From: Escherichia coli
Lineage (GTDB): Bacteria > Pseudomonadota > Gammaproteobacteria > Enterobacterales > Enterobacteriaceae
Reading direction: 5' to 3' (one strand)
Length of the DNA stretch: 64,000 bases
Assembly: GCF_003334765.1 (NCBI RefSeq)
Contig: NZ_QOWT01000023.1
Both the position numbers and the translations under genes were made by a program. Position 1 is the stretch's first letter. Every line of letters begins with the position of its first letter. The notes under the pieces are model-generated. The model was not told the DNA's origin. It searched no databases and worked only from the letters and a program-made list of their open reading frames with translations. Below are positions 10,440-53,192 of this stretch, one piece after another.

Positions 10440-11552
10440 ATGACCGCCTTAAATAAAAAATGGCTATCGGGTCTGGTTGCGGGTGCTCTGATGGCCGTCT
10501 CTGTCGGCACGCTCGCGGCTGAACAAAAAACACTCCACATTTATAACTGGTCTGATTATATCGCCCCGGACACGGTGGCCAATTTTGAAAAAGAAACCGG
10601 TATTAAAGTCGTCTACGATGTTTTCGACTCTAACGAAGTACTGGAAGGCAAATTAATGGCCGGGAGTACCGGCTTTGATCTGGTGGTTCCATCTGCCAGC
10701 TTTCTGGAGCGCCAGTTGACTGCGGGAGTTTTCCAGCCGCTGGACAAAAGCAAATTGCCGGAGTGGAAGAATCTCGACCCGGAACTGCTGAAGCTGGTCG
10801 CCAAACACGATCCCGACAATAAATTTGCTATGCCCTATATGTGGGCGACGACCGGGATTGGCTATAACGTTGATAAAGTTAAAGCGGTGCTGGGCGAAAA
10901 CGCGCCCGTCGATAGCTGGGACTTGATCCTCAAACCTGAAAATCTGGAAAAACTGAAAAGCTGCGGTGTCTCTTTCCTGGATGCGCCAGAAGAAGTTTTT
11001 GCTACCGTGTTGAATTATCTCGGCAAAGATCCCAACAGCACTAAAGCGGATGATTACACCGGACCGGCAACAGATCTGCTGTTAAAGCTGCGCCCGAACA
11101 TTCGTTATTTCCATTCATCTCAATACATTAACGACCTGGCAAACGGCGATATTTGCGTCGCTATCGGCTGGGCAGGTGATGTCTGGCAGGCGTCAAACCG
11201 CGCGAAGGAAGCGAAGAATGGCGTGAATGTCTCGTTCTCGATTCCAAAAGAAGGGGCGATGGCGTTCTTTGATGTATTCGCCATGCCTGCGGATGCCAAA
11301 AACAAAGACGAAGCCTATCAGTTCCTGAATTACCTGCTGCGCCCGGATGTAGTAGCGCATATTTCCGACCATGTGTTCTATGCCAACGCCAATAAAGCAG
11401 CCACGCCGCTGGTGAGTGCGGAAGTCCGTGAGAACCCAGGTATTTATCCGCCTGCGGATGTTCGTGCGAAGCTGTTCACTCTGAAAGTGCAGGATCCGAA
11501 AATCGACCGTGTGCGCACCCGCGCGTGGACCAAAGTGAAGAGCGGAAAATAA
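10440..11552 (+). CDS. potF: putrescine ABC transporter periplasmic binding protein
   Basis: 370-aa product with signal peptide MTALNKKWLSGLVAGALMAVSVGTLAA; first gene of potFGHI. Start at the ATG at 10440. Confidence 0.95.
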   Translation: MTALNKKWLSGLVAGALMAVSVGTLAAEQKTLHIYNWSDYIAPDTVANFEKETGIKVVYDVFDSNEVLEGKLMAGSTGFDLVVPSASFLERQLTAGVFQPLDKSKLPEWKNLDPELLKLVAKHDPDNKFAMPYMWATTGIGYNVDKVKAVLGENAPVDSWDLILKPENLEKLKSCGVSFLDAPEEVFATVLNYLGKDPNSTKADDYTGPATDLLLKLRPNIRYFHSSQYINDLANGDICVAIGWAGDVWQASNRAKEAKNGVNVSFSIPKEGAMAFFDVFAMPADAKNKDEAYQFLNYLLRPDVVAHISDHVFYANANKAATPLVSAEVRENPGIYPPADVRAKLFTLKVQDPKIDRVRTRAWTKVKSGK

Positions 11553-11646
11553 TCCGCAGTCGTAGATGCCGGAGGGGCGCACCACACCCGCCGGCAATTC
11601 GCACCATTATGGTGCGCTTGCACACATTCAATGCCGGAGAGCAGCC

Positions 11647-42408: not shown

Positions 42409-42496
42409 GTTCACTGCCGTACAGGCAGCTTAGAAATTCACAGGTAACATACTCCACCCGCCCACCATGTTCACTGCCGTACAGACAGATAAAATG
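42409..42496 (+). CRISPR. type I-F CRISPR remnant: two repeats and one 32-bp spacer, no cas genes in window
   Basis: Repeat 1 gttcactgccgtacaggcagcttagaaa (42409-42436) is the 28-bp E. coli/Yersinia subtype I-F repeat. Spacer ttcacaggtaacatactccacccgcccaccat (42437-42468). Repeat 2 gttcactgccgtacagacagataaaatg (42469-42496) is degenerate at its 3' end. Confidence 0.85.
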
Positions 42497-42540: not shown

Positions 42541-42554
42541 GGCGGTGAGGGGGA
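42541..42554 (-). other. tRNA-Ser (serW) 3'-end fragment = island attachment-site core copy; no intact tRNA here
   Basis: tggcggtgaggggg is the reverse complement of the last 14 nt (incl. CCA) of E. coli tRNA-Ser(GGA). It sits exactly where the serW 3' end is expected, about 344 bp after clpA. The tRNA body is replaced by island DNA. Confidence 0.5.
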
Positions 42555-42600
42555 CCGCCTGAAATAAATCTGACTTAATCCGGGGGTGTTATATAATTTC

Positions 42601-42713: not shown

Positions 42714-43931
42714 ATGGCAGTTTTGACGGATACTAAAGCAAGGCATATCAAACCTGATGACAAACCATTGCCCCATGGGGGAATTACAGGACTGACTCTT
42801 CATCCTTCTTCAGTAAAAGGGCGGGGTAAATGGGTTTTTCGTTATGTAAGTCCGGTGACACAAAAAAGGCGTAATGCTGGATTGGGAACTTATCCTGAGG
42901 TCAGTATTGCTGAAGCTGCACGTGCTGCCCGGATAATGCGAGAGCAACTTGCTGCAGGTGATGACCCACTGGAGATTAAAAAGGCTGAAGCTGAAAAAGT
43001 TGTTATCCCAACATTTGCCGATGCAGCCAGGCGTGTACATGCTGAATTGTCACCGGGATGGGAAAATCCAAAGCATGTCAGGCAGTGGTTATCGACGCTT
43101 GAAAATTACGCGTTTCCTCAACTGGGAGCAAAAACGCTGGATTCGATTACGGCTGCGGACGTGGCAGAAACACTGCGTCCAGTCTGGTTAACCTTGTCAG
43201 AAACGGCAAGCCGGGTTAAACAGCGCATTCATGTTGTTATGCAGTGGGGATGGGCGCACGGTTTTTGTGTGGCAAACCCTGTTGATGTGGTTGGCCATTT
43301 GCTTCCTCAGCAGACAAGAGGACGTGATGAACACCAACCCGCAATGCCCTGGAGGCAGTTACCGCTTTTTGTGGCGACCAGTGTGTATACAGATGAACCT
43401 TATAATGTTACCCGGGCACTGTTATTAATGGTGATACTTACAGCAACCCGCTCGGGCGAAGCCAGGGGAATGCGCTGGGCTGAAATTGATTTTCATAAGC
43501 GGATATGGACTATACCCGCAGAAAGAATGAAAGCCAGGATACAGCATCGTGTTCCTTTATCCCGGCAGGCCATTCACATTCTGGAAAATATACGTGGTTT
43601 GCATGATGAACTAGTGTTTCCTTCTCCCAGAAAGCAGCAGATCCTTTCAGATATGGTGTTGACGAGTTTTCTGCGTAAAAAGAAAGCCATCAGTGATATA
43701 CCGGGGCGAGTTGCCACGGCACATGGTTTTCGCTCAACATTCAGGGACTGGTGTAGTGAACAGGGGTATTCGCGGGATCTGGCGGAAAGGGCGCTCGCTC
43801 ATACGCTGAAAAATAAGGTTGAGGCGGCATATCATCGTACTGATCTACTGGAGCAGCGTGTACCGATGATGCAGGCATGGGCGGATTATGTGATGTCTCA
43901 ACTTGCTAAAAACACTAAGGAATTCGCTTAG
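42714..43931 (+). CDS. P4-family tyrosine integrase
   Basis: 405-aa ORF with N-terminal MAVLTDTKARHIKPDDKPLPHGGITGLTLHP and C-terminal catalytic region (...AHGFRSTFRDW...RALAHTLKNKVEAAYHRTDLLEQRVPMMQAW) typical of tRNA-site phage integrases. Confidence 0.9.
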   Translation: MAVLTDTKARHIKPDDKPLPHGGITGLTLHPSSVKGRGKWVFRYVSPVTQKRRNAGLGTYPEVSIAEAARAARIMREQLAAGDDPLEIKKAEAEKVVIPTFADAARRVHAELSPGWENPKHVRQWLSTLENYAFPQLGAKTLDSITAADVAETLRPVWLTLSETASRVKQRIHVVMQWGWAHGFCVANPVDVVGHLLPQQTRGRDEHQPAMPWRQLPLFVATSVYTDEPYNVTRALLLMVILTATRSGEARGMRWAEIDFHKRIWTIPAERMKARIQHRVPLSRQAIHILENIRGLHDELVFPSPRKQQILSDMVLTSFLRKKKAISDIPGRVATAHGFRSTFRDWCSEQGYSRDLAERALAHTLKNKVEAAYHRTDLLEQRVPMMQAWADYVMSQLAKNTKEFA

Positions 43932-44045: not shown

Positions 44046-44105
44046 TCATTATTATAACGAATAATACACTTGTGATAATTTATTTTTTGTCCGATAGTAT
44101 CTATA
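44046..44105 (+). repeat. direct repeat copy B downstream of int
   Basis: attattataacgaataatacacttgtgataatttattttttgtccgatagtatctatagt. Confidence 0.6.
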
Positions 44106-45630
44106 GTCTGTTTCGGTGATACTTCAGTATGTTTTGATGATCACAAATGAAAACTCCGGCATCGAATGCAGGAATATTTAGTTTTTTTGCCAGTTCGGAT
44201 GGTGTAATCGTGTTTCCTATATAAACAACCAGGTTATCATCAATCCTTATTTTCCTTTGTTCCGCCAGTATGTCAAGTGCTTCATCCAGAACACATTTTT
44301 TCCTGAGAGCATATGGGGCATATTGTAAAATATAACTTTTCTGGAATATGTAACCTGCTGTTGTGATAATTCTTTTCTGAAGCCATTTATCAAGTTTCTC
44401 AGCCGGGGATATTTCCCGAAGGGATTCAAGTTTATATATAAGATGCTTGAAATAAAATTCAATGAGATAAATGGCGCTATTAGTACTTTCCAGCGTTATT
44501 ACTGTCGAGTCTGGATCTTTCTCCAGTTCCAGAAGTGCTGCTATCCTGACAACCTGCTCTCTTTTTCTGACAATAATGTCTTCAAAAGTACCCATATGAG
44601 GATTCTGTCTGACAGTATCCATATTTTCTTTGTGAAAGCGCTCCAGTGCGCGGGATGCTGCATTTGATAATGTCATGCAGATGCGCTCTTTACTTTTTGC
44701 ACGTCTTTCTCTGGATGCTCTCAGAGAGTCTCTGATCTGACTGCCAAAACTTTTCTTACGAAAACAGCTTGCACATTGTTGCGTCACAACAGGAATGGCA
44801 GTATGCGGTTCTGTCGTCATTATTTTAATTGCTCCGGGTTCGCAAAATAGCAACCGGGCCAGAAAGCCATTGCCCCGGATCTGATCGCCAGTGAGAGTAA
44901 AAAACTTATTAAATATTACCGGTTGAGTCAGTATAAGTATAGTGAGACGGACATCATTCAGCCGGAATCCGGGTCTGGATGCTCGTTCAACGTTGACGGG
45001 TTGCCCACTCCATAATGTGTTGTACAGTGCCGATTTGCGTTCGAAACGCTTATCCAGAATAGTACCTCCTTCGTCAGACAGCAACAGAAGAGAGGGGGAC
45101 TGGCTGAGTTTCAAAGCTATCCCTTCTGGTGTCGCGTCATTAACGATGAGAACCTGTTGTGTGGGAGGTACGGGTTTATTTGCTATACACTTTTCAAGTG
45201 CTGCTCGTGCAGCAGCAGCATTTTCCGGGGATCTTTCCATTTCCTTTTTATATCTCCGCTCCAGTATTTTTTTATCTGTTGTCCACATCTCCATCATTCG
45301 GTCATAGTTTTTCTTATCGTCGATATATGCCTGATGTAGTTCTTCTTCTGTTTCATGAACAGGAGCGATTAATTTTGCACAGGCAGAGGTTTTTCCACTG
45401 CCTGATGCTGATGAAAGACACATAAATATCTGAAGGCTGGTACGCTGTCCTCCGGAAAGTTCAACTTCATGCGTATCCTGGACTGAGGCAGCCTTGACCG
45501 TCAGCATAACAGACAGCAGTATTTCACGGCTTATTCCCGTTTCTTCATGCATTTCATTAAGTAATGCCTGGCTCCTGTCAGGCAGTTTAGTTATGTCAAG
45601 TTCAGGGAGTGATAGTTTTGTCGTCATCAT
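44101..45630 (-). CDS. DUF3987-like (YfjI-like) protein with P-loop motif; putative island replication/primase-associated protein
   Basis: 509-aa ORF downstream of alpA on the same strand, motif SASGSGKTSACAKL. Start uncertain because of a 29-nt overlap with the alpA stop. Confidence 0.5.
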   Translation of the reverse strand: MMTTKLSLPELDITKLPDRSQALLNEMHEETGISREILLSVMLTVKAASVQDTHEVELSGGQRTSLQIFMCLSSASGSGKTSACAKLIAPVHETEEELHQAYIDDKKNYDRMMEMWTTDKKILERRYKKEMERSPENAAAARAALEKCIANKPVPPTQQVLIVNDATPEGIALKLSQSPSLLLLSDEGGTILDKRFERKSALYNTLWSGQPVNVERASRPGFRLNDVRLTILILTQPVIFNKFFTLTGDQIRGNGFLARLLFCEPGAIKIMTTEPHTAIPVVTQQCASCFRKKSFGSQIRDSLRASRERRAKSKERICMTLSNAASRALERFHKENMDTVRQNPHMGTFEDIIVRKREQVVRIAALLELEKDPDSTVITLESTNSAIYLIEFYFKHLIYKLESLREISPAEKLDKWLQKRIITTAGYIFQKSYILQYAPYALRKKCVLDEALDILAEQRKIRIDDNLVVYIGNTITPSELAKKLNIPAFDAGVFICDHQNILKYHRNRL

Positions 45631-45907
45631 TAAGTTCCTTTTGTTTGTTTTCAGGTTCAGACCAGGCTGGTGCCGTATGTAACGTCAGCCACTCATCGAT
45701 GGCAGATGCCCGCCAGCCAACGGATGCACTTCCAAGCCTTATCGGTTTGGGAAAGGTAGGGTCGTGGTATTTCGAGGCCGGATTTATTTTCACGTAAATC
45801 GTGGACCTGGATATACCCAGCAGCCGGGTAAGTTCAGCCATACGCAGGATGCGTGAAGGTGTGTCAAGCTGTCCGGTTTGATTTGACATATTGTTCTCCA
45901 TATGCAT
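45602..45907 (-). CDS. alpA: AlpA-family phage transcriptional regulator (HTH)
   Basis: ...ILRMAELTRLLGISRSTIYVKINPASKYHDPTFPKPIRLGSASVGWRASAIDEWL matches the AlpA/prophage CP4-57 regulator signature. True start may be the internal MSNQTGQ. Confidence 0.75.
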   Translation of the reverse strand: MHMENNMSNQTGQLDTPSRILRMAELTRLLGISRSTIYVKINPASKYHDPTFPKPIRLGSASVGWRASAIDEWLTLHTAPAWSEPENKQKELNDDDKTITP

Positions 45908-45962: not shown

Positions 45963-47825
45963 ATGCAAACCAACCGGAGAGCACAGCATATGCGCACATT
46001 TACAAATCTGTTGTATGATATTTGTACTGTTCTGGGGTTGTTCAGGGAAGGCGAGAACCCGGCACACAAGCGGAAGAGCACTAATTTCGAAATGCATCAA
46101 AAATTCTGGGATCAACGTTACAATGCGATCAGTCGTATTATTGATGCTGAAGGGGTGTATAGTCAGGAGCAACGGCGGATCATATATGCCCGGTATGAAC
46201 ATTTTTATTACATGATGAATTCTTATCCAGTTCATTCCACACTAAAATCTGAATTCCTTCGCAGCTATTGTCTGCGCACTTTTGGGGTTATTTTTCTTGT
46301 TGTAGATATTTATAATACATACAGACCAGAGAATGACTCTGCTTTTTATTATCATATTTATAATTTTTTACAGAAGTCGTATTGTCCTTGTCTTGATCAC
46401 TCTGATACAGAAAGCGATGAAGCTGCTGTTAAACGTTATCTTCGGGAATATCTGGCAGAACTGGGATTCAACAAGGAAGATTTTCATGAAAATGGAAAGT
46501 TGTATGCTCTGGGGAAATATACAGGAACTATTCGGAGGGATAACGGGAAAAGCAAGAGTCTGATGAAACAATATATCATGTCTATCAAAAATGAATATAA
46601 AAAGGATTATCGGGAGAAGAAACTGGATAAGGATGAACTGGAGAAATTACTCAGGAATATTGATAAATTCTATAATGCATTTTATTCATTAAGTGTCTTA
46701 CTTGATATACAACGAAAGACGAAGATACTTCAAAGCCTTGCATATTATCTCAGAGTGTTGGTGAGAAAGGGGCTCTGGACTCATGGTTTATATGGTTACG
46801 CTGAGCAATATCTTTATGACTTTACCAGCTTGGATACAACGCCTTATGCAAAAAAATTACTGGAAATGTTTTATAAGTTTGAAAACAGTGCAGAAGGGAC
46901 ATTGGCTCGTTATAATGTATCACTTGATGATAAATCTCAGGAATATATTGCCCGTCTGAAAGATCTTGTATTTAATATTAATGAGAAGAATGGTTGTGAT
47001 GACGCATATCTGAAAATGATTATAAGTCATTTTGGGCAGTTGCAGAATGAGGCTGTTCATGTGACCAGCTGCTACGGAACACTTGCGGTGTACATTTGTC
47101 TGATAAGGAAAAATAAAATTAATGATGTGCTGCATCATTATGATGACATGGAAAGAAAAGGATTGTTTGCTGAATTACCTTCAGGATATATCAGGGGGGC
47201 ATTATCGTTGCTTCGGACAGCACTGGAGGTTAAAGTAAATAGAAAAAATATAAAGTATGGCTCGTTGTTTTATTGGCTTGACCATGTAAAAGCTCATCAG
47301 GATGCATTTATTGAATCAATACCACTTATTGATCCTGTATATAAGGAGGGTGAAATACAGTATGATGCGAACAATTTTACCCTGATGCGTGTTATTAAGA
47401 TGTATAATTGTATGCTTGAAAAGATCAGTACGAAACCATATATAGCTCCCCCATATATTACAGGTTTGCTTGATGACGTAGAGAAGGTGCTGGATAAGAT
47501 AAATATTCTGATAGATAAAGAGTATGTTTATGATGGTAAGACACTGGCTGAAGTCATTATAGAGAACAAAGTATTATCCAGTCGCGAGCGTAAAGATACT
47601 ATGATAGGGCTTTTCACAGGCAGTAAGAAATATACTTTACTGCAATGTGTTGAGAAGCTTGGTGTATTAGTTCACTACGTGAAATCACCGGTCGATGAAA
47701 TTAAAAATGTGATGATGTTGTATGGCGATAAGGCCGAAAACAGGAACAGACGCAGAATGATATATGATGCGTTAACCATTATTTGTGAGGATGATAACAG
47801 GGCTAAACACCCTGATCTGTCGTGA
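45963..47825 (+). CDS. hypothetical protein, 620 aa (611 aa if start is the ATG at 45990); no recognisable domain
   Basis: Long uninterrupted AT-rich ORF divergent from alpA, rich in K/Y/N/I/E and predicted mainly helical. No Walker, nuclease, HTH or transmembrane motif recognised by eye. Confidence 0.6.
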   Translation: MQTNRRAQHMRTFTNLLYDICTVLGLFREGENPAHKRKSTNFEMHQKFWDQRYNAISRIIDAEGVYSQEQRRIIYARYEHFYYMMNSYPVHSTLKSEFLRSYCLRTFGVIFLVVDIYNTYRPENDSAFYYHIYNFLQKSYCPCLDHSDTESDEAAVKRYLREYLAELGFNKEDFHENGKLYALGKYTGTIRRDNGKSKSLMKQYIMSIKNEYKKDYREKKLDKDELEKLLRNIDKFYNAFYSLSVLLDIQRKTKILQSLAYYLRVLVRKGLWTHGLYGYAEQYLYDFTSLDTTPYAKKLLEMFYKFENSAEGTLARYNVSLDDKSQEYIARLKDLVFNINEKNGCDDAYLKMIISHFGQLQNEAVHVTSCYGTLAVYICLIRKNKINDVLHHYDDMERKGLFAELPSGYIRGALSLLRTALEVKVNRKNIKYGSLFYWLDHVKAHQDAFIESIPLIDPVYKEGEIQYDANNFTLMRVIKMYNCMLEKISTKPYIAPPYITGLLDDVEKVLDKINILIDKEYVYDGKTLAEVIIENKVLSSRERKDTMIGLFTGSKKYTLLQCVEKLGVLVHYVKSPVDEIKNVMMLYGDKAENRNRRRMIYDALTIICEDDNRAKHPDLS

Positions 47826-47861
47826 ACTCATCTGAGTGTGTTTTGAGTCAATAATCTTTAT

Positions 47862-47908
47862 ATCCCCCTGCTAATTTTGCTAACCATTAGCAAAATTAGC
47901 AGGGGGAT
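47862..47908. repeat. perfect 22-bp-arm inverted repeat (palindrome) 3' of the 620-aa ORF
   Basis: atccccctgctaattttgctaa-cca-ttagcaaaattagcagggggat; arms 47862-47883 and 47887-47908. Confidence 0.9.
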
Positions 47909-48176
47909 TATCTATGTCTGGCAAGAGAAAATTCTATAATAGTATGATTTCTTTGTTTATTTTGTTTTTCAATTAGAATGGTGTGTTTTTGTGATCTATG
48001 TCTAATTGTTTTGTATTCTTAGCGCCATCCCATTCATGGGCAGATGTACATACCGCCCCTATTAGATTGATGGGTTGCATGTTCATTGTATCTGTAAAAT
48101 ATGCCAGTTTTGACATTAATACATAATCTGTAATTCGGTGTAAGCTCTTGTCTGGTGAATTATGTTGCGTATTCCG

Positions 48177-48246
48177 CTCTATTCGATCACGGATTGGGCC
48201 AAATCATGATCGATTCGAATGCCAAACTGCGATCGATTCAGATGCC
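48177..48246 (+). repeat. GATC-containing direct repeats (iteron-like) in AT-rich non-coding region
   Basis: gatcgattcgaatgcc (48208-48223) and gatcgattcagatgcc (48231-48246), plus related attcgatcac at 48181-48190. Three Dam GATC sites fall within about 50 bp. Confidence 0.6.
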
Positions 48247-49200
48247 ATTTTGCATTATGTTAGTGGCTTATTCTTCTTGTTCTTTTTTACAGGTTATGTA
48301 AGTGTGATTATCCTGATTACTGGTCACTCATTATATACTGAGTCGACAAAACAAATGAGTATTAACTGAAGTTTTTATACAGTGATCATCTGTCTGGTTA
48401 GGTTAGTTAGTTCTGGGAGAATCACATTTATTTCATATACCATGAATAATTAAGGTTAATTAGTATTATTAGTTGGAGTTATGGTATTGTGTGTCTGTGC
48501 CGTATTGTTTGTATATTTGTTGTATAACTTATCTCTTTACGTGGTAATGTCACTCCTCTTTATGCTAAGTATTCTGTATGTGTGTAATGCATATATCTCC
48601 ATACACTACGCAGTGAAGCATATGGGGGAAGCTGTATGGTGAATTATGTGTGTAATGTTGTCCTGTACGTACTTAACACTGGTTACGTATCGGAACACTA
48701 TTAGAGCGTGTTATGACTCCGTTACAGTTTATAGGTATAGGTAAATATGATCTTTTCTGTATGGAACAATCTTCTTATGGTGTGTGGGTATGTTCTGTAT
48801 ACCATTATTCTTTTATGCTAATGATTAAATACCCGTGGTCTCTCTCGGCTTTACTTAATGGTTCGACAATATTAATAGCGATGTTGCCTGTAGCTAGCCG
48901 ATACTGAGTTTTGTGAATGTCAGATTACTTCCTGTAAAGAATTTAGTGGTGCTTCCTGAAACTCAATTCTATGAGGTGTGTTTTTCCATTGTAATTCGTA
49001 CTGGTTCTCAGTTTAAGAGAGTCTCACTGTATTCTGAAGTATTACCTCATCACAGTAATGCGGTAATACAAAACAGTTTTATCAGGTTGTCTGTGCTGCT
49101 GGTTTACTTCGTTTATTAATGCCGTGGTACGGCGTTTCTCTACTCTCAGTATTTACGTAAGTCTCTCTTCCTGTGAGTTTTATAAAGTAAGGACTATAAA

Positions 49201-49764
49201 ATGTATAATGCCAATCCCAATTACAAAATGGATTTCATGATTCTGAAAGACGTGAATGAACACATGGATGGTATGTTTCAACGTTTTTCTAAACTGTTAC
49301 CTTTCAGAATTGATTTTGCTTACAGGAAAGACACGCCCAGTTTCGGTCATTCCTGTAAGCACAGTATGTGTATGGAAATATACCGTTTACTTTGCGAAAC
49401 CCAGACGATGTTGGCGGGATATTACTGGGTAATGGAATATACACCAGACAAAGGGCTTCATATTCATTTTGTCGGCTACCTGGATGGGCAACGTCACAAG
49501 AACTCTTATCAGATATCCAGGCAACTGGGAGATATCTGGAGGCGGATCACGGAAGGGGAGGGTTACTTTCACCTTTGCCGGGCTAAAGACAAATACCCGG
49601 TGCGTATCGATCACGTGATGCACTATAGTGATAAGTCCGCGGTAGACAACTTACGTTACGCCCTTAGCTATCTGGCTAAACAGGATCAGAAAGAACACGG
49701 TATTATTCTGGGCCGTAGCAGGCTTCCCGAAAAAAGCAACCGGGGCCGACCACGACATAACTGA
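49201..49764 (+). CDS. YagK/YfjJ-family (inovirus Gp2-like) protein with HUH-type motif
   Basis: 187-aa ORF containing GLHIHFVGY (His-hydrophobic-His) and a downstream Tyr-containing region, reminiscent of rolling-circle/HUH initiators and CP4-57 YfjJ. Confidence 0.5.
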   Translation: MYNANPNYKMDFMILKDVNEHMDGMFQRFSKLLPFRIDFAYRKDTPSFGHSCKHSMCMEIYRLLCETQTMLAGYYWVMEYTPDKGLHIHFVGYLDGQRHKNSYQISRQLGDIWRRITEGEGYFHLCRAKDKYPVRIDHVMHYSDKSAVDNLRYALSYLAKQDQKEHGIILGRSRLPEKSNRGRPRHN

Positions 49765-49840
49765 ATTACAGTTGTATTAGGTATTAGAATTAAGTTTCTG
49801 TAAGTTGTTGGGAGGTGCTTGAGTTAATAGGCAGAAGAGG

Positions 49841-52279
49841 GTGGGGCGCTTTGTCATCAGTGTAGGGGACCCGAATTTCTGCCGTGGTGCCTCAGTGGAT
49901 CGGATACAGGTAACGAATATGGTTCATAAATCTGACAGTGATGAATTAGCTGCATTGAGGGCAGAAAATGCCCGTCTGGTCTCATTACTTGAAGCTCATG
50001 GGATTGAATGGCGACGTAAACCGCCGATCTCTGTGCAGCGCGTTTCTGTATTATCCACCAATGAGAAGGTTGCATTATTTCGTCGGTTGTTTCGCGGGCG
50101 TGATGATGTATGGGCACTTAGATGGGAAAGTAAAACCAGCGGCAAATCAGGGTACTCTCCTGCCTGCGCTAACGAATGGCAGGCGAGAATATGCGGTAAG
50201 CCCCGGATAAAATGTGGGGACTGCGCTCACCGTCAGTTGATTCCTGTATCTGATCTCGTCATCTACTACCATCTGGCAGGTACCCATACTGCCGGGATGT
50301 ATCCGTTGCTGGAAGATGATTCCTGTTATTTTCTGGCTGTTGATTTTGATGAAGCTGAATGGCAGAAGGATGCATCCGCATTCATGCGATCCTGTGATGA
50401 GCTGGGTGTACCCGCTGCGCTGGAAATATCCCGTTCACGTCAGGGAGCGCATGTCTGGATATTTTTTGCTTCACGAGTTTCGGCCCGCGAAGCTCGCCGT
50501 CTGGGGACTGCTATTATTAGTTATACGTGTAATCGAACTCGACAGCTGCGATTGGGTTCTTATGACCGATTATTTCCTAATCAGGATACGATGCCAAAAG
50601 GGGGATTTGGTAATCTCATAGCATTACCTCTGCAAAAAAGACCGCGTGAATCGGGGGGAAGTGTTTTTGTTGATATGAATTTCCAGCCTTATTCTGATCA
50701 ATGGGCTTTTCTTGCATCGGTGATCCCGATGAATGTGCAGAATATTGAACCGACGATATTACGGGCTACAGGAAGTATCCATCCTCTGGATGTGAACTTT
50801 ATCAACGAAGAAGACCTGGGTACGCCATGGGAAGGGAAAAAATCATCAGGAAACAGACTGAATATTTCTATTGCAGAACCGCTGAAAATCACGCTGGCAA
50901 ACCAGATCTATTTCGAAAAAGCGCAATTACCTCAGGTGCTGATTAACCGACTTATTCGGCTGGCAGCATTTCCGAACCCTGAGTTTTATAAGGCTCAGGC
51001 AATGCGTATGTCAGTCTGGAATAAGCCCCGTGTTATAGGTTGTGCGGAGAATTACCCGCAACACATTGCGTTGCCCCAGGGATGTCTGGACAGCGTATTA
51101 TCTTTCCTTAGGGACAACAATATTGCTGCAGAATTAATCGATAAACGATTTGTCGGGACGGAATGTAATGCCGTTTTTATGGGAAACCTCAGAGCGGAGC
51201 AGGAAGAGGCCGTTTCGGCATTACTCCGTTATGACACTGGTGTGCTTTGTGCGCCAACGGCTTTTGGTAAGACAGTTACCGCAGCGGCAGTGATTGCCAG
51301 ACGGAAAGTGAATACACTGATACTGGTACACCGGACTGAATTGCTGAAGCAGTGGCAGGAGCGTCTCGAGGTGTTTCTGCAGGTTGGTGACAATATTGGT
51401 ATTATCGGGGGAGGTAAACATAAACCCTGTGGCAATATTGATATTGCGGTGGTGCAGTCCATATCCAGACACGGAGAAGTTGAACCTCTGGTCAGGAATT
51501 ATGGGCAAATCATTGTGGATGAGTGCCATCATATTGGCGCGGTTTCATTTTCTGCGATTCTGAAGGAAACGAATGCCAGATATCTGCTTGGCCTGACGGC
51601 AACACCAATCCGACGGGATGGTCTGCATCCCATTATTTTTATGTACTGTGGTGCCATTCGCCATACAGCGGTCCGCCCGAAGGAAAGCCCACATAATCTG
51701 GAGGTACTGACCCGTTCCCGTTTTACATCTGGTCATTTACCATCGGATGCGAGAATCCAGGATATTTTCAGAGAAATTGCTCTGGATCATGACAGAACGG
51801 TGGCGATAGCTGAAGAAGCCATGAAAGCTTTCGGGCAGGGGCGAAAAGTTCTGGTACTGACTGAACGTACAGATCATCTGGATGAGATAGCATCAGTGAT
51901 GAATTCACTGAAATTGTCCCCCTTTATTCTCCATGGACGACTATCGAAAAAAAAGCGTGCGATGCTGATATCCGGGCTGAATGCTCTTCCTCCTGATTCT
52001 CCCCGTATTTTGTTGTCAACAGGCAGACTTATTGGTGAGGGATTTGACCACCCTCCGCTGGATACGCTGATTCTTGCCATGCCTGTGTCATGGAAAGGGA
52101 CATTACAGCAGTATGCGGGACGTCTACACAGAGAGCATACCGGTAAAAGCGATGTCAGGATCATTGATTTTGTGGATACCGCGTATCCAGTGCTGCTCAG
52201 AATGTGGGATAAACGCCAGCGGGGTTATAAGGCGATGGGGTACAGGATTGTGGCTGATGGTGAAGGGCTTTCATTTTAA
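49841..52279 (+). CDS. PrimPol-like (AEP) N-terminal domain fused to SF2 DExH helicase
   Basis: Helicase motifs: I APTAFGKT, II IVDECHH, III GLTATP, VI QYAGRLHR. N-terminal region has AEP-like motifs FLAVDFDE (DxD) and QGAHVWIFF (sxH) plus a Cys cluster CGKPRIKCGDCAH. Likely start is the ATG at 49919 (MVHKSD). Confidence 0.7.
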   Translation: MGRFVISVGDPNFCRGASVDRIQVTNMVHKSDSDELAALRAENARLVSLLEAHGIEWRRKPPISVQRVSVLSTNEKVALFRRLFRGRDDVWALRWESKTSGKSGYSPACANEWQARICGKPRIKCGDCAHRQLIPVSDLVIYYHLAGTHTAGMYPLLEDDSCYFLAVDFDEAEWQKDASAFMRSCDELGVPAALEISRSRQGAHVWIFFASRVSAREARRLGTAIISYTCNRTRQLRLGSYDRLFPNQDTMPKGGFGNLIALPLQKRPRESGGSVFVDMNFQPYSDQWAFLASVIPMNVQNIEPTILRATGSIHPLDVNFINEEDLGTPWEGKKSSGNRLNISIAEPLKITLANQIYFEKAQLPQVLINRLIRLAAFPNPEFYKAQAMRMSVWNKPRVIGCAENYPQHIALPQGCLDSVLSFLRDNNIAAELIDKRFVGTECNAVFMGNLRAEQEEAVSALLRYDTGVLCAPTAFGKTVTAAAVIARRKVNTLILVHRTELLKQWQERLEVFLQVGDNIGIIGGGKHKPCGNIDIAVVQSISRHGEVEPLVRNYGQIIVDECHHIGAVSFSAILKETNARYLLGLTATPIRRDGLHPIIFMYCGAIRHTAVRPKESPHNLEVLTRSRFTSGHLPSDARIQDIFREIALDHDRTVAIAEEAMKAFGQGRKVLVLTERTDHLDEIASVMNSLKLSPFILHGRLSKKKRAMLISGLNALPPDSPRILLSTGRLIGEGFDHPPLDTLILAMPVSWKGTLQQYAGRLHREHTGKSDVRIIDFVDTAYPVLLRMWDKRQRGYKAMGYRIVADGEGLSF

Positions 52280-52296: not shown

Positions 52297-52512
52297 TTAA
52301 ATAATTTGAGCTCCCCGGGTTGTTCGGGCAACAAAGAGTCCCAGTATACAGGCTTCAGGAATATGTTGTAGTATCAGGCTTTTCATCGCTTTAAAATGGC
52401 TACCGGCAGTAAGAACGTCATCAAAAATAACAATCCAGGGCCTGCATCCCTCCAGTAATTGTTCATTCAGTTGGTAGTTTGCCATAATCGCTTCTGGTGA
52501 GGGCCGGTTTGT
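52297..52512 (-). pseudogene. phosphoribosyltransferase (ComF/GntX-like PRTase) C-terminal fragment, truncated by IS66-family insertion
   Basis: ...PWIVIFDDVLTAGSHFKAMKSLILQ carries the type-I PRTase PRPP-binding motif. The reading frame runs straight into the IS66-family terminus at 52514. Confidence 0.55.
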
Positions 52513-52551
52513 TGGTAAGCGTGCAGCAAGAACCGTATTGACGGGGATGTG

Positions 52552-52899
52552 TTATTCAGTCGGCAGTGCTACGCGCCAGGGGAGCAGTTCGCCGACCCGG
52601 TTTATCGGCCAGTCGGCTATGACGTCAAGGACATAGCGGAGGTAGCTTTCTGGCTCCACTCCGTTCAGTTTGCACGTCCCGATCAGGCTGTACAGCAGCG
52701 CTCCCCGCTCTCCTCCATGATCCGAACCGAAGAACAGGTAATTTTTGCGGCCCAGACTGACCATCCGCAGCGCATTCTCAGCTATGTTGTTATCAGCCTC
52801 GGCCCAGCCGTCGTCAGTATAGTAAGCCAGCGCTGGCCACTGGTTCAGTACGTACGTGAACGCTTTCGCCAGTTCTGAGTGTCGCGACAGGGTTTTCAC
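52552..52899 (-). pseudogene. IS66-family transposase TnpC, C-terminal fragment
   Basis: ...NNIAENALRMVSLGRKNYLFFGSDHGGERGALLYSLIGTCKLNGVEPESYLRYVL...ELLPW is the conserved IS66 transposase C-terminus; the N-terminal part (about 400 aa) is absent. Confidence 0.8.
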
Positions 52900-52928
52900 C
52901 TTTTCACGTAGCCAGCCTTCCAGGGATT

Positions 52929-53192
52929 TCAGTCGCCTTTGTCATCGCGGGCCGACGGCCAGGCGAAGCGGCCACGCTCCAGCCGTTTGGTCAGCAGACA
53001 CAGTCCATCGCCGGTAGACCAGAGGAGCTTTACCTGACTGCCATTACGCCCACGGAAGATAAAAACGTGACCTGACATCGGATCGTCTTTCAGCGTCGTC
53101 TGCACCTTTGCCGCCAGGCCGTTGAAGCCGTTTCTCATATCGGTGATGCCAGCGACGAGCCAGATCTTTGTCCCTGATGGTAATGGGATCAA
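52929..53192 (-). CDS. IS66-family accessory protein TnpB (Orf2)
   Basis: 87-aa ORF MIPLPSGTKIWLVAGITDMRNGFNGLAAKV..., typical IS66 orfB. Confidence 0.8.
   Translation of the reverse strand: MIPLPSGTKIWLVAGITDMRNGFNGLAAKVQTTLKDDPMSGHVFIFRGRNGSQVKLLWSTGDGLCLLTKRLERGRFAWPSARDDKGD

What the first reader, a model, noticed from the sequence alone, without database searches (positions are those of the whole stretch)
49201..52279. Putative replication module: YfjJ-like HUH protein plus PrimPol-like/SF2 helicase fusion
The 187-aa ORF has an HIHFVGY (HUH-type) motif, and the downstream 786-812-aa protein combines AEP/PrimPol-like motifs (DFD, GAHVW, Cys cluster) with a complete DExH helicase motif set. 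Together with the upstream repeat region this looks like a self-replication module, implying the island is or was an integrative element capable of episomal replication (PICI-like or satellite-like). PrimPol-helicase fusions are also found in conflict systems, so a defence role cannot be excluded.
Basis: partly seen in the sequence, partly recalled or inferred. Interest (0 to 1): 0.55.

Follow-up and report, generated by a model that had tools for sequence, protein, structure and literature searches.

The report
HUH gene beside primase-helicase cargo
Both genes are real and intact, but they are not one replication module: the small gene is a backbone rolling-circle-type nuclease gene of CP4-57-like E. 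coli islands, and the large primase-helicase fusion is an already-annotated, swappable "conflict system" cargo gene that most likely serves defence.

Summary

The "self-replication module" reading is not supported. The HUH gene belongs to the conserved int-DUF3987(YfjI)-AlpA-YfjJ backbone of CP4-57-type islands. The position after it holds different defence cargo in different hosts:
- AbpAB and RnlAB in K-12
- restriction systems in Citrobacter and Erwinia
- Dpd in Yersinia

Among complete E. coli genomes, 1560 carry the HUH gene but only 684 carry the full primase-helicase. Distant primase-helicase homologs sit in toxin-antitoxin or defence islands, on plasmids that have their own replicons, and in no sequenced phage. 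Some are fused to PLD or REase-type nucleases.

In intact relatives the next genes are a Shosta system. Here IS66 has cut it down to the ShosT tail.

No iteron array lies upstream. There is one 18-nt element, conserved across genera, that travels with the HUH gene.

The parts
49201..49764 (+). 187-aa YfjJ/inovirus-Gp2-like HUH (Rep/relaxase-type) protein with a C-terminal RGRPR AT-hook-like tail. It is an island backbone gene.
49919..52279 (+). 786-aa fusion protein (812 aa if started at GTG 49841). Layout: N-terminal coiled coil, Zn-finger Cys cluster plus AEP/PrimPol domain (about residues 49-300), XPB-like SF2 helicase (about residues 320-780). It is cargo, and a candidate single-gene conflict or defence enzyme.
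48454..48471 (+). Conserved 18-nt AT-rich element GGTTAATTAGTATTATTA (core of AATTAAGGTTAATTA[A/G]TATTATTA). It is single-copy and lies upstream of the HUH gene on the same strand. It is a candidate operator/promoter or HUH nick/origin site.
   Evidence: Unique in the window, with 0 matches in shuffles. Present upstream of every full-length HUH gene in the E. coli, Citrobacter, Yersinia and Erwinia loci. In a scan of 100,044 species genomes, all 13 element-bearing loci that encode an HUH homolog have the gene directly downstream on the same strand, including Gilliamella and Dechloromonas. Limnobaculum carries a near copy.
52297..52515 (-). C-terminal remnant of a ShosT (PRTase toxin) gene of a Shosta system. 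The N-terminal two thirds of ShosT and the ShosA antitoxin gene are lost.
   Evidence: PADLOC ShosT 2.8e-15 on the 62-aa ORF. Intact relatives have ShosT (208 aa, 1e-50) and ShosA (297 aa, 4e-103) here. Alignment with the intact locus breaks at about 52515.
52552..53626 (-). IS66-family remnants (partial transposase, TnpB, TnpA) that truncate Shosta and begin a cluster of IS elements.
   Evidence: ORFs; RefSeq annotation of the identical NCTC9082 locus.
44101..45630 (-). 509-aa DUF3987/YfjI-family protein. It is the more likely replication or helicase-type protein of the island backbone.
   Evidence: RefSeq 'DUF3987 domain-containing protein'; PHROG 2373 'DNA helicase' 5.6e-39 and primase PHROGs; 24% identity, E 8e-41 to K-12 YfjI.
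45602..45907 (-). AlpA-like helix-turn-helix regulator/excisionase (backbone).
   Evidence: PHROG excisionase/regulator hits; RefSeq HTH regulator; Phage_AlpA Pfam on the orthologs.
42714..43931 (+). Tyrosine integrase at the left island end, next to a 15-nt tRNA-Ser 3' fragment (about 42541-42555).
   Evidence: RefSeq annotation; sequence; the flank left of 42553 is core chromosome next to tRNA-Ser in at least 4882 genomes.
45963..47825 (+). 620-aa conserved hypothetical backbone protein with no family match. It is followed by a perfect 22-nt-arm terminator hairpin at 47862-47908.
   Evidence: No hit in Pfam, NCBIfam, PADLOC or PHROGs. A 627-aa counterpart sits at the same backbone position in Citrobacter, where the cargo differs. 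Hairpin.

Best explanation
The finding covers two separate units of a CP4-57-type integrative island inserted at a tRNA-Ser gene.

(1) The 187-aa gene is a backbone gene. It encodes a minimal HUH nuclease of the YagK/YfjJ/inovirus-Gp2 kind. It travels with int, AlpA, DUF3987(YfjI) and a 620-aa unknown protein, and it has its own conserved 18-nt cis element upstream. It probably acts in the island's own DNA transactions, by nicking at an origin for rolling-circle replication or for mobilisation. Alternatively the element is simply its operator/promoter. This function is inferred, not shown.

(2) The 786-aa PrimPol/XPB-like helicase fusion is horizontally mobile, single-gene cargo. It sits in the variable slot after the HUH gene, and that slot carries anti-phage systems in other hosts. 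It most likely acts as a conflict or defence enzyme. The XPB-like ATPase would load on and open or translocate along invading or replicating DNA, and the PrimPol would synthesise primers or DNA there, interfering with phage or plasmid replication or marking it. Relatives add a C-terminal PLD or REase-type nuclease as executioner; the E. coli form has none. The enzymatic competence of both domains is shown by conservation and fold. The defence role and mechanism are inferred from context.

The former neighbour, a Shosta toxin-antitoxin defence system, has been destroyed here by IS66.
For: Identity and fold:
- Domains, motifs and folds are established for both proteins.

The HUH gene is backbone:
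- Citrobacter freundii has the same int-DUF3987-AlpA-627aa-HUH order, followed by MTase/Eco57I/AAA_5/McrBC.
- In Erwinia the HUH gene is followed by AlpA and a type I R-M system.
- In Yersinia it is followed by a Dpd-type cluster.
- K-12 CP4-57 has alpA-yfjI-yfjJ followed by abpBA and rnlAB (AbpAB defence, PMC10732053).

Uncoupling within E. coli:
- The HUH gene is present at 80% coverage or more in 1560 genomes. The helicase gene reaches that in 684.
- NC101 has the backbone with no helicase.
- About 1000 genomes keep only a roughly 330-nt 5' stub, which in the one such locus inspected is followed by a different 1354-aa AAA protein.

The helicase fusion elsewhere:
- 3288 representative clusters match at E<1e-30.
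- Neighbours are toxin-antitoxin and defence genes, with no HUH gene and no Shosta.
- It lies inside a Tn3-like unit on a Pantoea plasmid that has its own IncFII RepA, and beside a type I R-M system plus nucleotidyltransferase, MPN/JAB, 3'-5' exonuclease, NYN and WYL genes on an Aeromonas plasmid.
- None of 50,697 phage records has a full-length homolog.
- 6 of 56 relatives carry PLDc_2; others carry DUF559, MTES_1575 or PNP_UDP_1 domains.

Selection and public naming:
- Purifying selection acts on both genes.
- Pfam and RefSeq already class the AEP domain as a conflict-system domain.

Neighbour:
- Shosta is intact in relatives and truncated here. ShosTA is a verified two-gene defence/TA system (bioRxiv 10.1101/2022.05.11.491447).
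Against: - No experiment shows defence by this protein or any close relative. PADLOC (2023) matches it only through a 'CAS-associated PrimPol' profile and generic helicase profiles, not through a validated system.
- The two genes are on the same strand, 154 nt apart, with no convincing terminator or promoter between them. They may therefore be co-transcribed and cooperate in this lineage.
- In E. coli the helicase gene and Shosta stay together even when the left context changes, so a lineage-specific functional link cannot be excluded.
- Only about ten neighbourhoods of distant homologs were inspected. That is a sample, not a census.
- The canonical TOTE partners (TPR, OB, TBP) were not found, so the family label itself says little about mechanism here.
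Confidence: 0.7

Rival explanations
1. First reader's model. The HUH protein nicks an origin in the upstream region, and the PrimPol-helicase primes and unwinds. Together they give the excised island autonomous (PICI- or satellite-like) replication.
For: - Both proteins have replication-type enzymology.
- They are adjacent and on the same strand.
- A conserved cis element lies upstream of the HUH gene.
- The island has int, AlpA and a DUF3987 protein, as Gram-negative PICI-like elements do (the PICI layout is from my own knowledge).
Against: - The two genes are uncoupled across genera and within E. coli.
- The cis element follows the HUH gene, not the helicase.
- Replicative AEP fusions normally use SF3/D5 or MCM helicases rather than an XPB-like SF2 (own knowledge).
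- No phage or satellite record carries the fusion.
- Relatives are fused to nucleases.
- Plasmids that carry the fusion have their own Rep.
- No iteron array is present.
Confidence: 0.12
2. The PrimPol-helicase and the adjacent convergent ShosA/ShosT genes form one three-gene defence system in E. coli. For example, the PrimPol-helicase generates or senses ssDNA that titrates the DprA-like antitoxin and releases the PRTase toxin.
For: - The block helicase-ShosT-ShosA is kept together in several E. coli contexts, including ones where the HUH gene is truncated or absent.
- The stop codons are 17 nt apart.
- ShosA is homologous to the ssDNA-binding protein DprA.
Against: - ShosTA works as a two-gene system.
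- Distant helicase homologs have no DprA or PRTase neighbours.
- The genes are convergent and so not one operon.
- Here Shosta is destroyed while the helicase gene stays intact.
Confidence: 0.08
3. The PrimPol-helicase is a DNA damage-tolerance or repair factor: repriming plus XPB-like lesion opening. It benefits the host or the element rather than acting against invaders.
For: - The helicase part is most similar to the XPB/Rad25 and RadD repair helicases.
- An E. coli PrimPol-RT defence protein is reported to contribute to an oxidative DNA damage response as well (abstract of PMC12439943).
Against: - The gene has a patchy, horizontally mobile distribution in TA and defence islands, transposons and plasmids.
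- Relatives are fused to PLD or REase nucleases and a PNP_UDP domain.
- About 1000 E. coli genomes retain only a 5' stub of the gene.
Confidence: 0.1

Closest known systems
Pfam PF22548 AEP-TOTE family (AEP domain of 'TOTE' conflict systems; Aravind, Iyer and Burroughs 2022, as cited in PMC12458937) fused to an SF2 helicase
   Same: The full-length AEP-TOTE domain matches (E 2e-98) with all AEP catalytic motifs. The same AEP plus ResIII/Helicase_C architecture occurs in all 56 sampled relatives. RefSeq uses this very name for the protein.
   Different: TOTE stands for TPR, OB, TBP, Effector. No TPR, cold-shock/OB or TBP gene was detected next to this gene, or next to the seven distant homologs whose neighbourhoods were inspected. 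Unlike the PLD- or REase-fused relatives, the E. coli form has no fused effector nuclease.
CRISPR-associated Prim-Pol (CAPP), Marinitoga (PDB 7nqd/7nqf)
   Different: It scores below the NCBIfam PrimPol_Msp cutoff (84 versus 200 bits). No cas genes are adjacent. It is fused to an XPB-like helicase.
XPB/Rad25 and archaeal XPBII, and bacterial RadD (SF2 DNA translocases/helicases)
   Different: Those proteins are stand-alone repair or transcription factors without a primase domain, and they are chromosomal core genes rather than island cargo.
E. coli K-12 CP4-57 segment alpA-yfjI-yfjJ-abpB-abpA-rnlAB
   Same: The layout is the same: AlpA, a DUF3987/YfjI protein, a YfjJ-family protein, then defence cargo. 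The DUF3987 proteins are homologous (E 8e-41). The 187-aa protein is a distant YfjJ relative that shares the WV.EYT...H.H block.
   Different: YfjJ itself is only marginally similar (pairwise E 0.001) and lacks the 18-nt element upstream. The cargo differs (AbpAB/RnlAB versus PrimPol-helicase/Shosta). The gene order and orientation of the alpA-DUF3987 block also differ.
Replicative primase-helicase fusions of mobile elements (pRN1 ORF904 AEP+SF3, P4 alpha, PICI Pri-Rep); from my own knowledge
   Same: They combine a primase or primase-polymerase with a helicase, encoded on an integrative or mobile element.
   Different: Those use SF3/D5-type (or MCM) helicases with an origin-binding domain and are conserved core genes of their elements. 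This protein has an XPB-like SF2 helicase, is dispensable cargo, and is absent from sequenced phages.
PrimPol-RT defence proteins (UG10/DRT7, E. coli PPRT)
   Same: The AEP domain gives weak matches to the RT_UG10 profiles (E 1e-5). They are a precedent for an AEP/PrimPol domain working inside an anti-phage protein (PMC9226505; PMC12439943 abstract).
   Different: Those are fused to a reverse transcriptase, not to an SF2 helicase.

Membership tests
AEP-TOTE / AEP-SF2 helicase fusion family (PF22548) | Significant full-length match to the AEP-TOTE profile | tested here: met
   E 2.3e-98, model positions 1-228 of 230. All 56 sampled relatives also match.
AEP-TOTE / AEP-SF2 helicase fusion family (PF22548) | AEP catalytic motifs (DxD, sxH, hD) and AEP fold | tested here: met
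AEP-TOTE / AEP-SF2 helicase fusion family (PF22548) | C-terminal SF2 helicase with complete motif set | tested here: met
   GKT, DECHH, TATP and QxxGRxxR are conserved. ResIII and Helicase_C match. XPB-like fold.
TOTE conflict system as an operon (TPR, OB, TBP, Effector) | Neighbouring TPR, OB/cold-shock and TBP-domain components | tested here: not met
   No such Pfam, NCBIfam or PADLOC hit occurs in the flanking genes. The 620-aa neighbour has no hit at all, and it belongs to the backbone. None is present in the neighbourhoods of distant homologs. Detection was at profile level only. The definition comes from PMC12458937; the original review could not be read.
TOTE conflict system as an operon (TPR, OB, TBP, Effector) | Associated effector (e.g. 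nuclease) | tested here: inconclusive
   The 786-aa form has no fused effector. Relatives carry PLDc_2, DUF559, MTES_1575 or PNP_UDP_1. The adjacent ShosT toxin belongs to a separate known system.
HUH endonuclease superfamily (Rep/relaxase; YagK/YfjJ, inovirus Gp2 branch) | HUH metal-binding motif and catalytic Tyr motif | tested here: met
   H87 invariant, H89 at least 90% conserved, E79 invariant. Y153 and Y157 at least 90% conserved, K160 invariant (YxxxYxxK).
HUH endonuclease superfamily (Rep/relaxase; YagK/YfjJ, inovirus Gp2 branch) | Rep-type alpha/beta fold | tested here: met
HUH endonuclease superfamily (Rep/relaxase; YagK/YfjJ, inovirus Gp2 branch) | Significant Pfam family match | tested here: inconclusive
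   REP_ORF2-G2P 0.0028 and YagK_YfjJ_C 0.048 for this sequence. Several homologs carry precomputed PF23343 or PF11726 hits. Pairwise E to K-12 YfjJ is 0.001.
HUH endonuclease superfamily (Rep/relaxase; YagK/YfjJ, inovirus Gp2 branch) | Site-specific ssDNA nicking and joining at an origin | not testable with these tools
   Only a candidate cis site, the conserved 18-mer, was found.
PICI / phage satellite | int + AlpA-type regulator + replication (pri/rep) module | tested here: inconclusive
   int, AlpA-like HTH and DUF3987/YfjI are present. No origin was demonstrated.
PICI / phage satellite | Packaging or capsid-redirection genes and helper-phage induction | not tested
   The right part of the island is replaced by IS elements, espI and iha. 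No search for terS or capsid genes was made, and induction is not testable here.
CRISPR-associated PrimPol (NCBIfam NF040561) | Score above the curated cutoff, and cas gene adjacency | tested here: not met
   84.4 bits against a cutoff of 200. There are no cas genes. The only CRISPR feature is a core-chromosome mini-array 7.4 kb away.
Shosta (ShosTA) defence system | Intact ShosT (PRTase) and ShosA (DprA-like) | tested here: not met
   Only the last roughly 73 codons of ShosT remain. Both genes are intact in relatives.

The most novel reading that the evidence does not exclude
The nuclease-free E. coli form of the PrimPol/XPB-like helicase is a self-contained immune enzyme whose effector is synthesis rather than cleavage. 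The XPB-like motor opens invading or replicating phage DNA, and the PrimPol lays down aberrant primers or DNA that stall or poison phage replication. Independently, the HUH protein with its 18-nt element could be a rolling-circle or mobilisation origin that gives the large CP4-57 family of 'cryptic prophages' an unrecognised mode of propagation.
Probability: 0.15. Interest if true: 0.65.

Novelty: already known. Interest (0 to 1): 0.27.

Why it matters
The practical result is a corrected annotation. The PrimPol-helicase should not be used as evidence that this island replicates autonomously.

It is an uncharacterised but very common candidate defence gene. A full copy is present in about 13% of complete E. 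coli genomes, remnants are present in about another 19%, and the wider family has thousands of clusters. That makes it a reasonable target for a phage-challenge experiment.

The analysis also shows that the position after the YfjJ-type gene of CP4-57-like islands is a defence-cargo slot. It further shows that the YfjJ-type HUH gene carries an 18-nt cis element conserved from Enterobacterales to Gilliamella and Dechloromonas. This gives a concrete handle for testing what this long-unexplained gene family does.

Tried and rejected
- Iterons or an origin in 47826-49200. The repeat finder, TRF and a k-mer versus dinucleotide-shuffle test found only a terminator hairpin, a weak 23-nt x 2.2 tandem and two-copy k-mers. 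Rejected as an iteron array.
- Structured RNA in the 1.4-kb gap. Rfam at E<=1 gave only spurious mir-2300 hits on the hairpin.
- Promoter or terminator between the two genes. The scan gave nothing above shuffles.
- TPR/OB/TBP partners that would make this a canonical TOTE operon. None found (and the neighbourhood calls).
- A link to CRISPR, suggested by the PADLOC 'CAS-associated' PrimPol profile and a type I-F repeat at 42409. The mini-array is core chromosome, present in at least 4882 genomes, and is not part of the island.
- The 187-aa ORF next to a 62%-identical helicase homolog in L010. It is unrelated to the HUH protein, and the 237-aa neighbour there is unrelated to ShosT.
- PDB sequence search for the HUH protein. 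It gave only a repeat-driven artefact hit to designed Kelch proteins.
- The Aravind et al. 2022 review that defines TOTE could not be retrieved, and no paper in the library mentions AEP-TOTE or PF22548.
- The genome-wide scan for the 18-mer returned 68 loci. Of these, 54 are in unrelated, mostly AT-rich genomes with no HUH homolog, about the number a random-sequence estimate of mine predicts (not a tool result). One more lies at a contig end and is uninformative.


Full report
**What is there**

The window is E. coli chromosome. A genomic island starts at about 42.55 kb, next to a 15-nt tRNA-Ser 3' fragment. From left to right it carries:
- a tyrosine integrase (42714-43931, +)
- a DUF3987/YfjI-family protein (44101-45630, -)
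- an AlpA-like HTH (45602-45907, -)
- a 620-aa protein with no family match (45963-47825, +)
- a 1.4-kb AT-rich gap
- the 187-aa ORF of the finding (49201-49764, +)
- the large ORF (49841/49919-52279, +)
- a 62-aa ORF on the opposite strand (52297-52485)
- a pile of IS remnants, then espI and iha

**The small protein**

HIHFVGY is present at residues 87-93. I aligned 25 relatives down to 33% identity.
- Invariant: H87, E79 and K160.
- At least 90% conserved: H89, Y153 and Y157.

Together these residues form HUH plus a YxxxYxxK motif of the phiX174-A/Rep type (the motif comparison is from my own knowledge). An N-terminal FRIDF block and a C-terminal RGRPR (AT-hook-like) tail are also conserved.

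- Pfam matches are only marginal: REP_ORF2-G2P 0.0028 and YagK_YfjJ_C 0.048.
- A confident AlphaFold model (pLDDT 89.8) hits an 'Inovirus Gp2' protein best in the viral structure library (E 1.5e-8, TM 0.66). Parvovirus NS1, microvirus and CRESS Rep proteins follow.

I accept it as a minimal HUH nuclease. RefSeq already calls it 'inovirus-type Gp2 protein' or 'YagK/YfjJ domain-containing protein'.

**The large protein**

The conserved start is the ATG at 49919, giving 786 aa.
- Pfam gives AEP-TOTE (2e-98), DNA_primase_S, ResIII and Helicase_C.
- In 56 relatives at 36-60% identity the following are invariant or nearly so: the AEP motifs (D142-F-D144, SRSxxGxH178xW, D216), a four-Cys cluster, and the helicase motifs (GKT 450-452, DECHH 534-538, TATP, QxxGRxxR 731-738).
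- The AlphaFold model is confident (pLDDT 91.2).

RefSeq names the protein 'TOTE conflict system archaeo-eukaryotic primase domain-containing protein', so its identity is already public knowledge.

**Are the two genes one module?**

No. I looked at neighbourhoods from both sides.

From the HUH side:
- Citrobacter freundii (52% identity) has exactly the same backbone, int-DUF3987-AlpA-627aa-HUH. It is followed by methyltransferases, an Eco57I-type enzyme, AAA_5 and McrBC.
- In Erwinia (58%) the HUH gene is followed by AlpA and a type I R-M system, inside a CP4-57-like set of genes: DUF4942, CbtA/CbeA, RadC, DUF932, YfjT and a GTPase.
- In Yersinia (42%) it is followed by AlpA and a Dpd-type cluster.
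- Limnobaculum has no primase-helicase either.
- E. coli K-12 CP4-57 shows the same logic: alpA-yfjI(DUF3987)-yfjJ, then abpB/abpA and rnlAB. AbpAB is an experimentally studied defence system (PMC10732053).
- The DUF3987 protein here is a YfjI homolog (E 8e-41). The HUH protein is a distant YfjJ relative.

From the helicase side:
- The fusion family is very large, with 3288 representative clusters at E<1e-30.
- A 62%-identical homolog is preceded by the PADLOC candidate genes PDC-M21A/B, and a PIN/Phd toxin-antitoxin pair lies further upstream.
- Other homologs lie next to an AbiLi-like ATPase with CcdAB/zeta toxins, or near a DUF4011 helicase and a NERD nuclease.
- A 965-aa form with a fused PLD nuclease sits alone among PIN and MNT toxin-antitoxin genes.
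- None of these neighbourhoods has an HUH gene, a DprA/PRTase pair, or TPR/OB/TBP genes.

On plasmids and phages:
- On plasmids the gene is cargo. In Pantoea it lies inside a Tn3-like unit on a plasmid with its own IncFII RepA. In Aeromonas it sits beside a type I R-M system plus nucleotidyltransferase, MPN/JAB, 3'-5' exonuclease, NYN and WYL genes.
- Identities of 60-81% in Pantoea, Azotobacter, Cupriavidus, Aeromonas and Burkholderia plasmids indicate horizontal spread.
- None of 50,697 phage records encodes the full fusion.
- Among the 56 aligned relatives, 6 carry PLDc_2. Single members carry DUF559, MTES_1575 or PNP_UDP_1. Such domains fit conflict effectors, not replication proteins.

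Within E. coli:
- 1560 of 5426 complete genomes hold at least 80% of the HUH gene. Only 684 hold at least 80% of the helicase gene.
- NC101 has the backbone and the HUH gene with no helicase.
- About 1000 genomes keep only a roughly 330-nt 5' stub. In the one such locus inspected (strain 300444) the stub is annotated as a frameshifted pseudogene and is followed by a different 1354-aa AAA-domain protein.
- Some genomes have an IS1 inside the gene.
- So the gene is not consistently pseudogenised, and dN/dS is 0.24 against a 95% allele. It is, however, frequently replaced, as expected for cargo in an exchange hot spot.

**The right-hand neighbour**

The 62-aa ORF matches the C-terminal part of ShosT (PADLOC 2.8e-15). 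In intact relatives the helicase gene is followed, convergently, by ShosT (208 aa, 1e-50) and ShosA (DprA-like, 297 aa, 4e-103). CdiB/CdiA comes next.

The window sequence matches the intact locus up to about 52515 and then switches to IS66 remnants. ShosTA is a verified two-gene toxin-antitoxin defence system. The slot after the HUH gene therefore held two defence-type units here, and one of them is now dead.

**The upstream region**

There is no iteron array and no known RNA family. BLAST of the gap against the corresponding gaps of other genera picked out one short shared stretch. Its core is GGTTAATTAGTATTATTA at 48454-48471.
- It is unique in the window, and none is expected by chance.
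- It lies upstream of every full-length HUH gene in the E. coli, Citrobacter, Yersinia and Erwinia loci, on the same strand, with unconserved flanks. It stays with the HUH gene where the left backbone is inverted.
- An exact-pattern scan of one genome per species (100,044 species) gave 68 loci. My own random-sequence estimate for that much DNA is roughly 35 or more chance matches (not a tool result).
- Thirteen of the 68 encode an HUH homolog. In all 13 the gene lies directly downstream on the element's strand. These are E. albertii, Salmonella diarizonae, Serratia, Edaphovirga, Erwinia rhapontici, five Gilliamella and two Dechloromonas.
- Limnobaculum has a near copy with one substitution outside the two degenerate positions of the scan pattern (two differences from the E. 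coli 18-mer); K-12 yfjJ has none.
- The fuller consensus, AATTAA-GG-TTAATT followed by A(A/G)TATTATTA, reads as a 6-nt inverted repeat abutting a -10-like box. It could therefore be an operator/promoter, or it could be the recognition or nick site of the HUH protein. I cannot decide between these by computation.

The element supports the idea that the HUH gene has a dedicated cis site. It is linked to the HUH gene, not to the PrimPol-helicase.

**How it most likely works**

Shown:
- Both enzymatic halves of the fusion are under constraint and correctly folded in the model.
- The HUH protein keeps its catalytic residues.
- The two genes have independent evolutionary distributions.
- The fusion's context is repeatedly one of defence, toxin-antitoxin or transposon genes.

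Inferred:
- The fusion is a single-gene conflict enzyme. Its XPB-like motor engages and opens foreign or replicating DNA, and its PrimPol synthesises on that DNA. Relatives add a nuclease.
- The HUH protein serves the island's own replication or mobilisation, together with DUF3987/YfjI and AlpA.

I put about 0.7 on the overall picture of backbone HUH plus unrelated defence-type cargo. Within that picture, the confidence that the cargo truly acts against phages or plasmids is lower.

**Comparison and novelty**

The protein is a member of the AEP-TOTE/SF2 fusion family by every feature I could test. It is not embedded in a canonical TPR-OB-TBP-effector operon (definition from PMC12458937). It is also not a CAPP by NCBIfam's cutoff.

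Both genes are already annotated with these family names in RefSeq, so the finding is already known in kind and in instance.

What may be modestly new is the recognition of the post-YfjJ slot as a defence-cargo position, and the 18-nt element. Neither was checked against the literature beyond the searches listed.

Noticed in passing
window 42409-42496 (+): A mini CRISPR array of type I-F. It has a perfect repeat GTTCACTGCCGTACAGGCAGCTTAGAAA (Rfam CRISPR-DR4, 50 bits, E 1.6e-9), a 32-nt spacer and a degenerate second repeat. It lies just left of the island junction and belongs to the core chromosome next to tRNA-Ser (at least 80% of the 301-nt query is present in 4882 of 5426 genomes). RefSeq labels this spot 'RtT sRNA' in some genomes. 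The spacer target was not searched.
   Followed up: partly
window 42541-42555, and the whole window: Only a 15-nt tRNA-Ser 3' end fragment (tggcggtgaggggga, minus strand) abuts the integrase end of the island. ARAGORN finds no tRNA anywhere in the 64-kb window, so the intact tRNA copy, and hence the other island end, lies outside the window or has been lost.
   Followed up: no
L097 (E. coli strain 300444) 7001-11585; about 1000 E. coli genomes: Many E. coli genomes keep only a roughly 330-nt, 86-88%-identical 5' stub of an AEP-TOTE gene. In the one locus inspected it sits directly after the HUH gene and is followed by a 1354-aa 'AAA domain-containing protein'. This looks like a cargo swap with a breakpoint inside the 5' end of the primase-helicase gene.
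   Followed up: partly
L014 versus L018, L020, L096 (E. coli islands): The block of 605-620-aa protein, AlpA and DUF3987 is inverted relative to the integrase and the HUH gene in some E. coli islands. In those, DUF3987 is often split and an IS1 is present. The 18-nt element stays with the HUH gene.
   Followed up: no
window 45963-47825 (+): The 620-aa protein is conserved at the same backbone position in Citrobacter (627 aa) and in other E. coli islands (605-607 aa). It has no hit in Pfam, NCBIfam, PADLOC or PHROGs, and its function is unknown.
   Followed up: partly
window 47862-47908: A perfect 22-nt-arm inverted repeat with a 3-nt loop lies 37 nt after the stop of the 620-aa gene. It is probably that gene's terminator, though no T-run follows it. 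It produces spurious Rfam mir-2300 hits on both strands.
   Followed up: no
L014 11494-16361 and equivalents: In relatives with an intact locus, a contact-dependent inhibition pair (a ShlB/CdiB-type transporter and a CdiA with a PT-VENN toxin domain, over 3100 aa) follows Shosta. In the window this stretch is replaced by IS66, IS3, IS200, IS1 and other remnants and then by espI and iha.
   Followed up: no
L010 3728-4979: The 62%-identical primase-helicase homolog is preceded, 23 nt upstream on the same strand, by two genes matching the PADLOC candidate system PDC-M21 (A 1.4e-45, B 1.8e-66). They may be partners of the helicase in that lineage.
   Followed up: no
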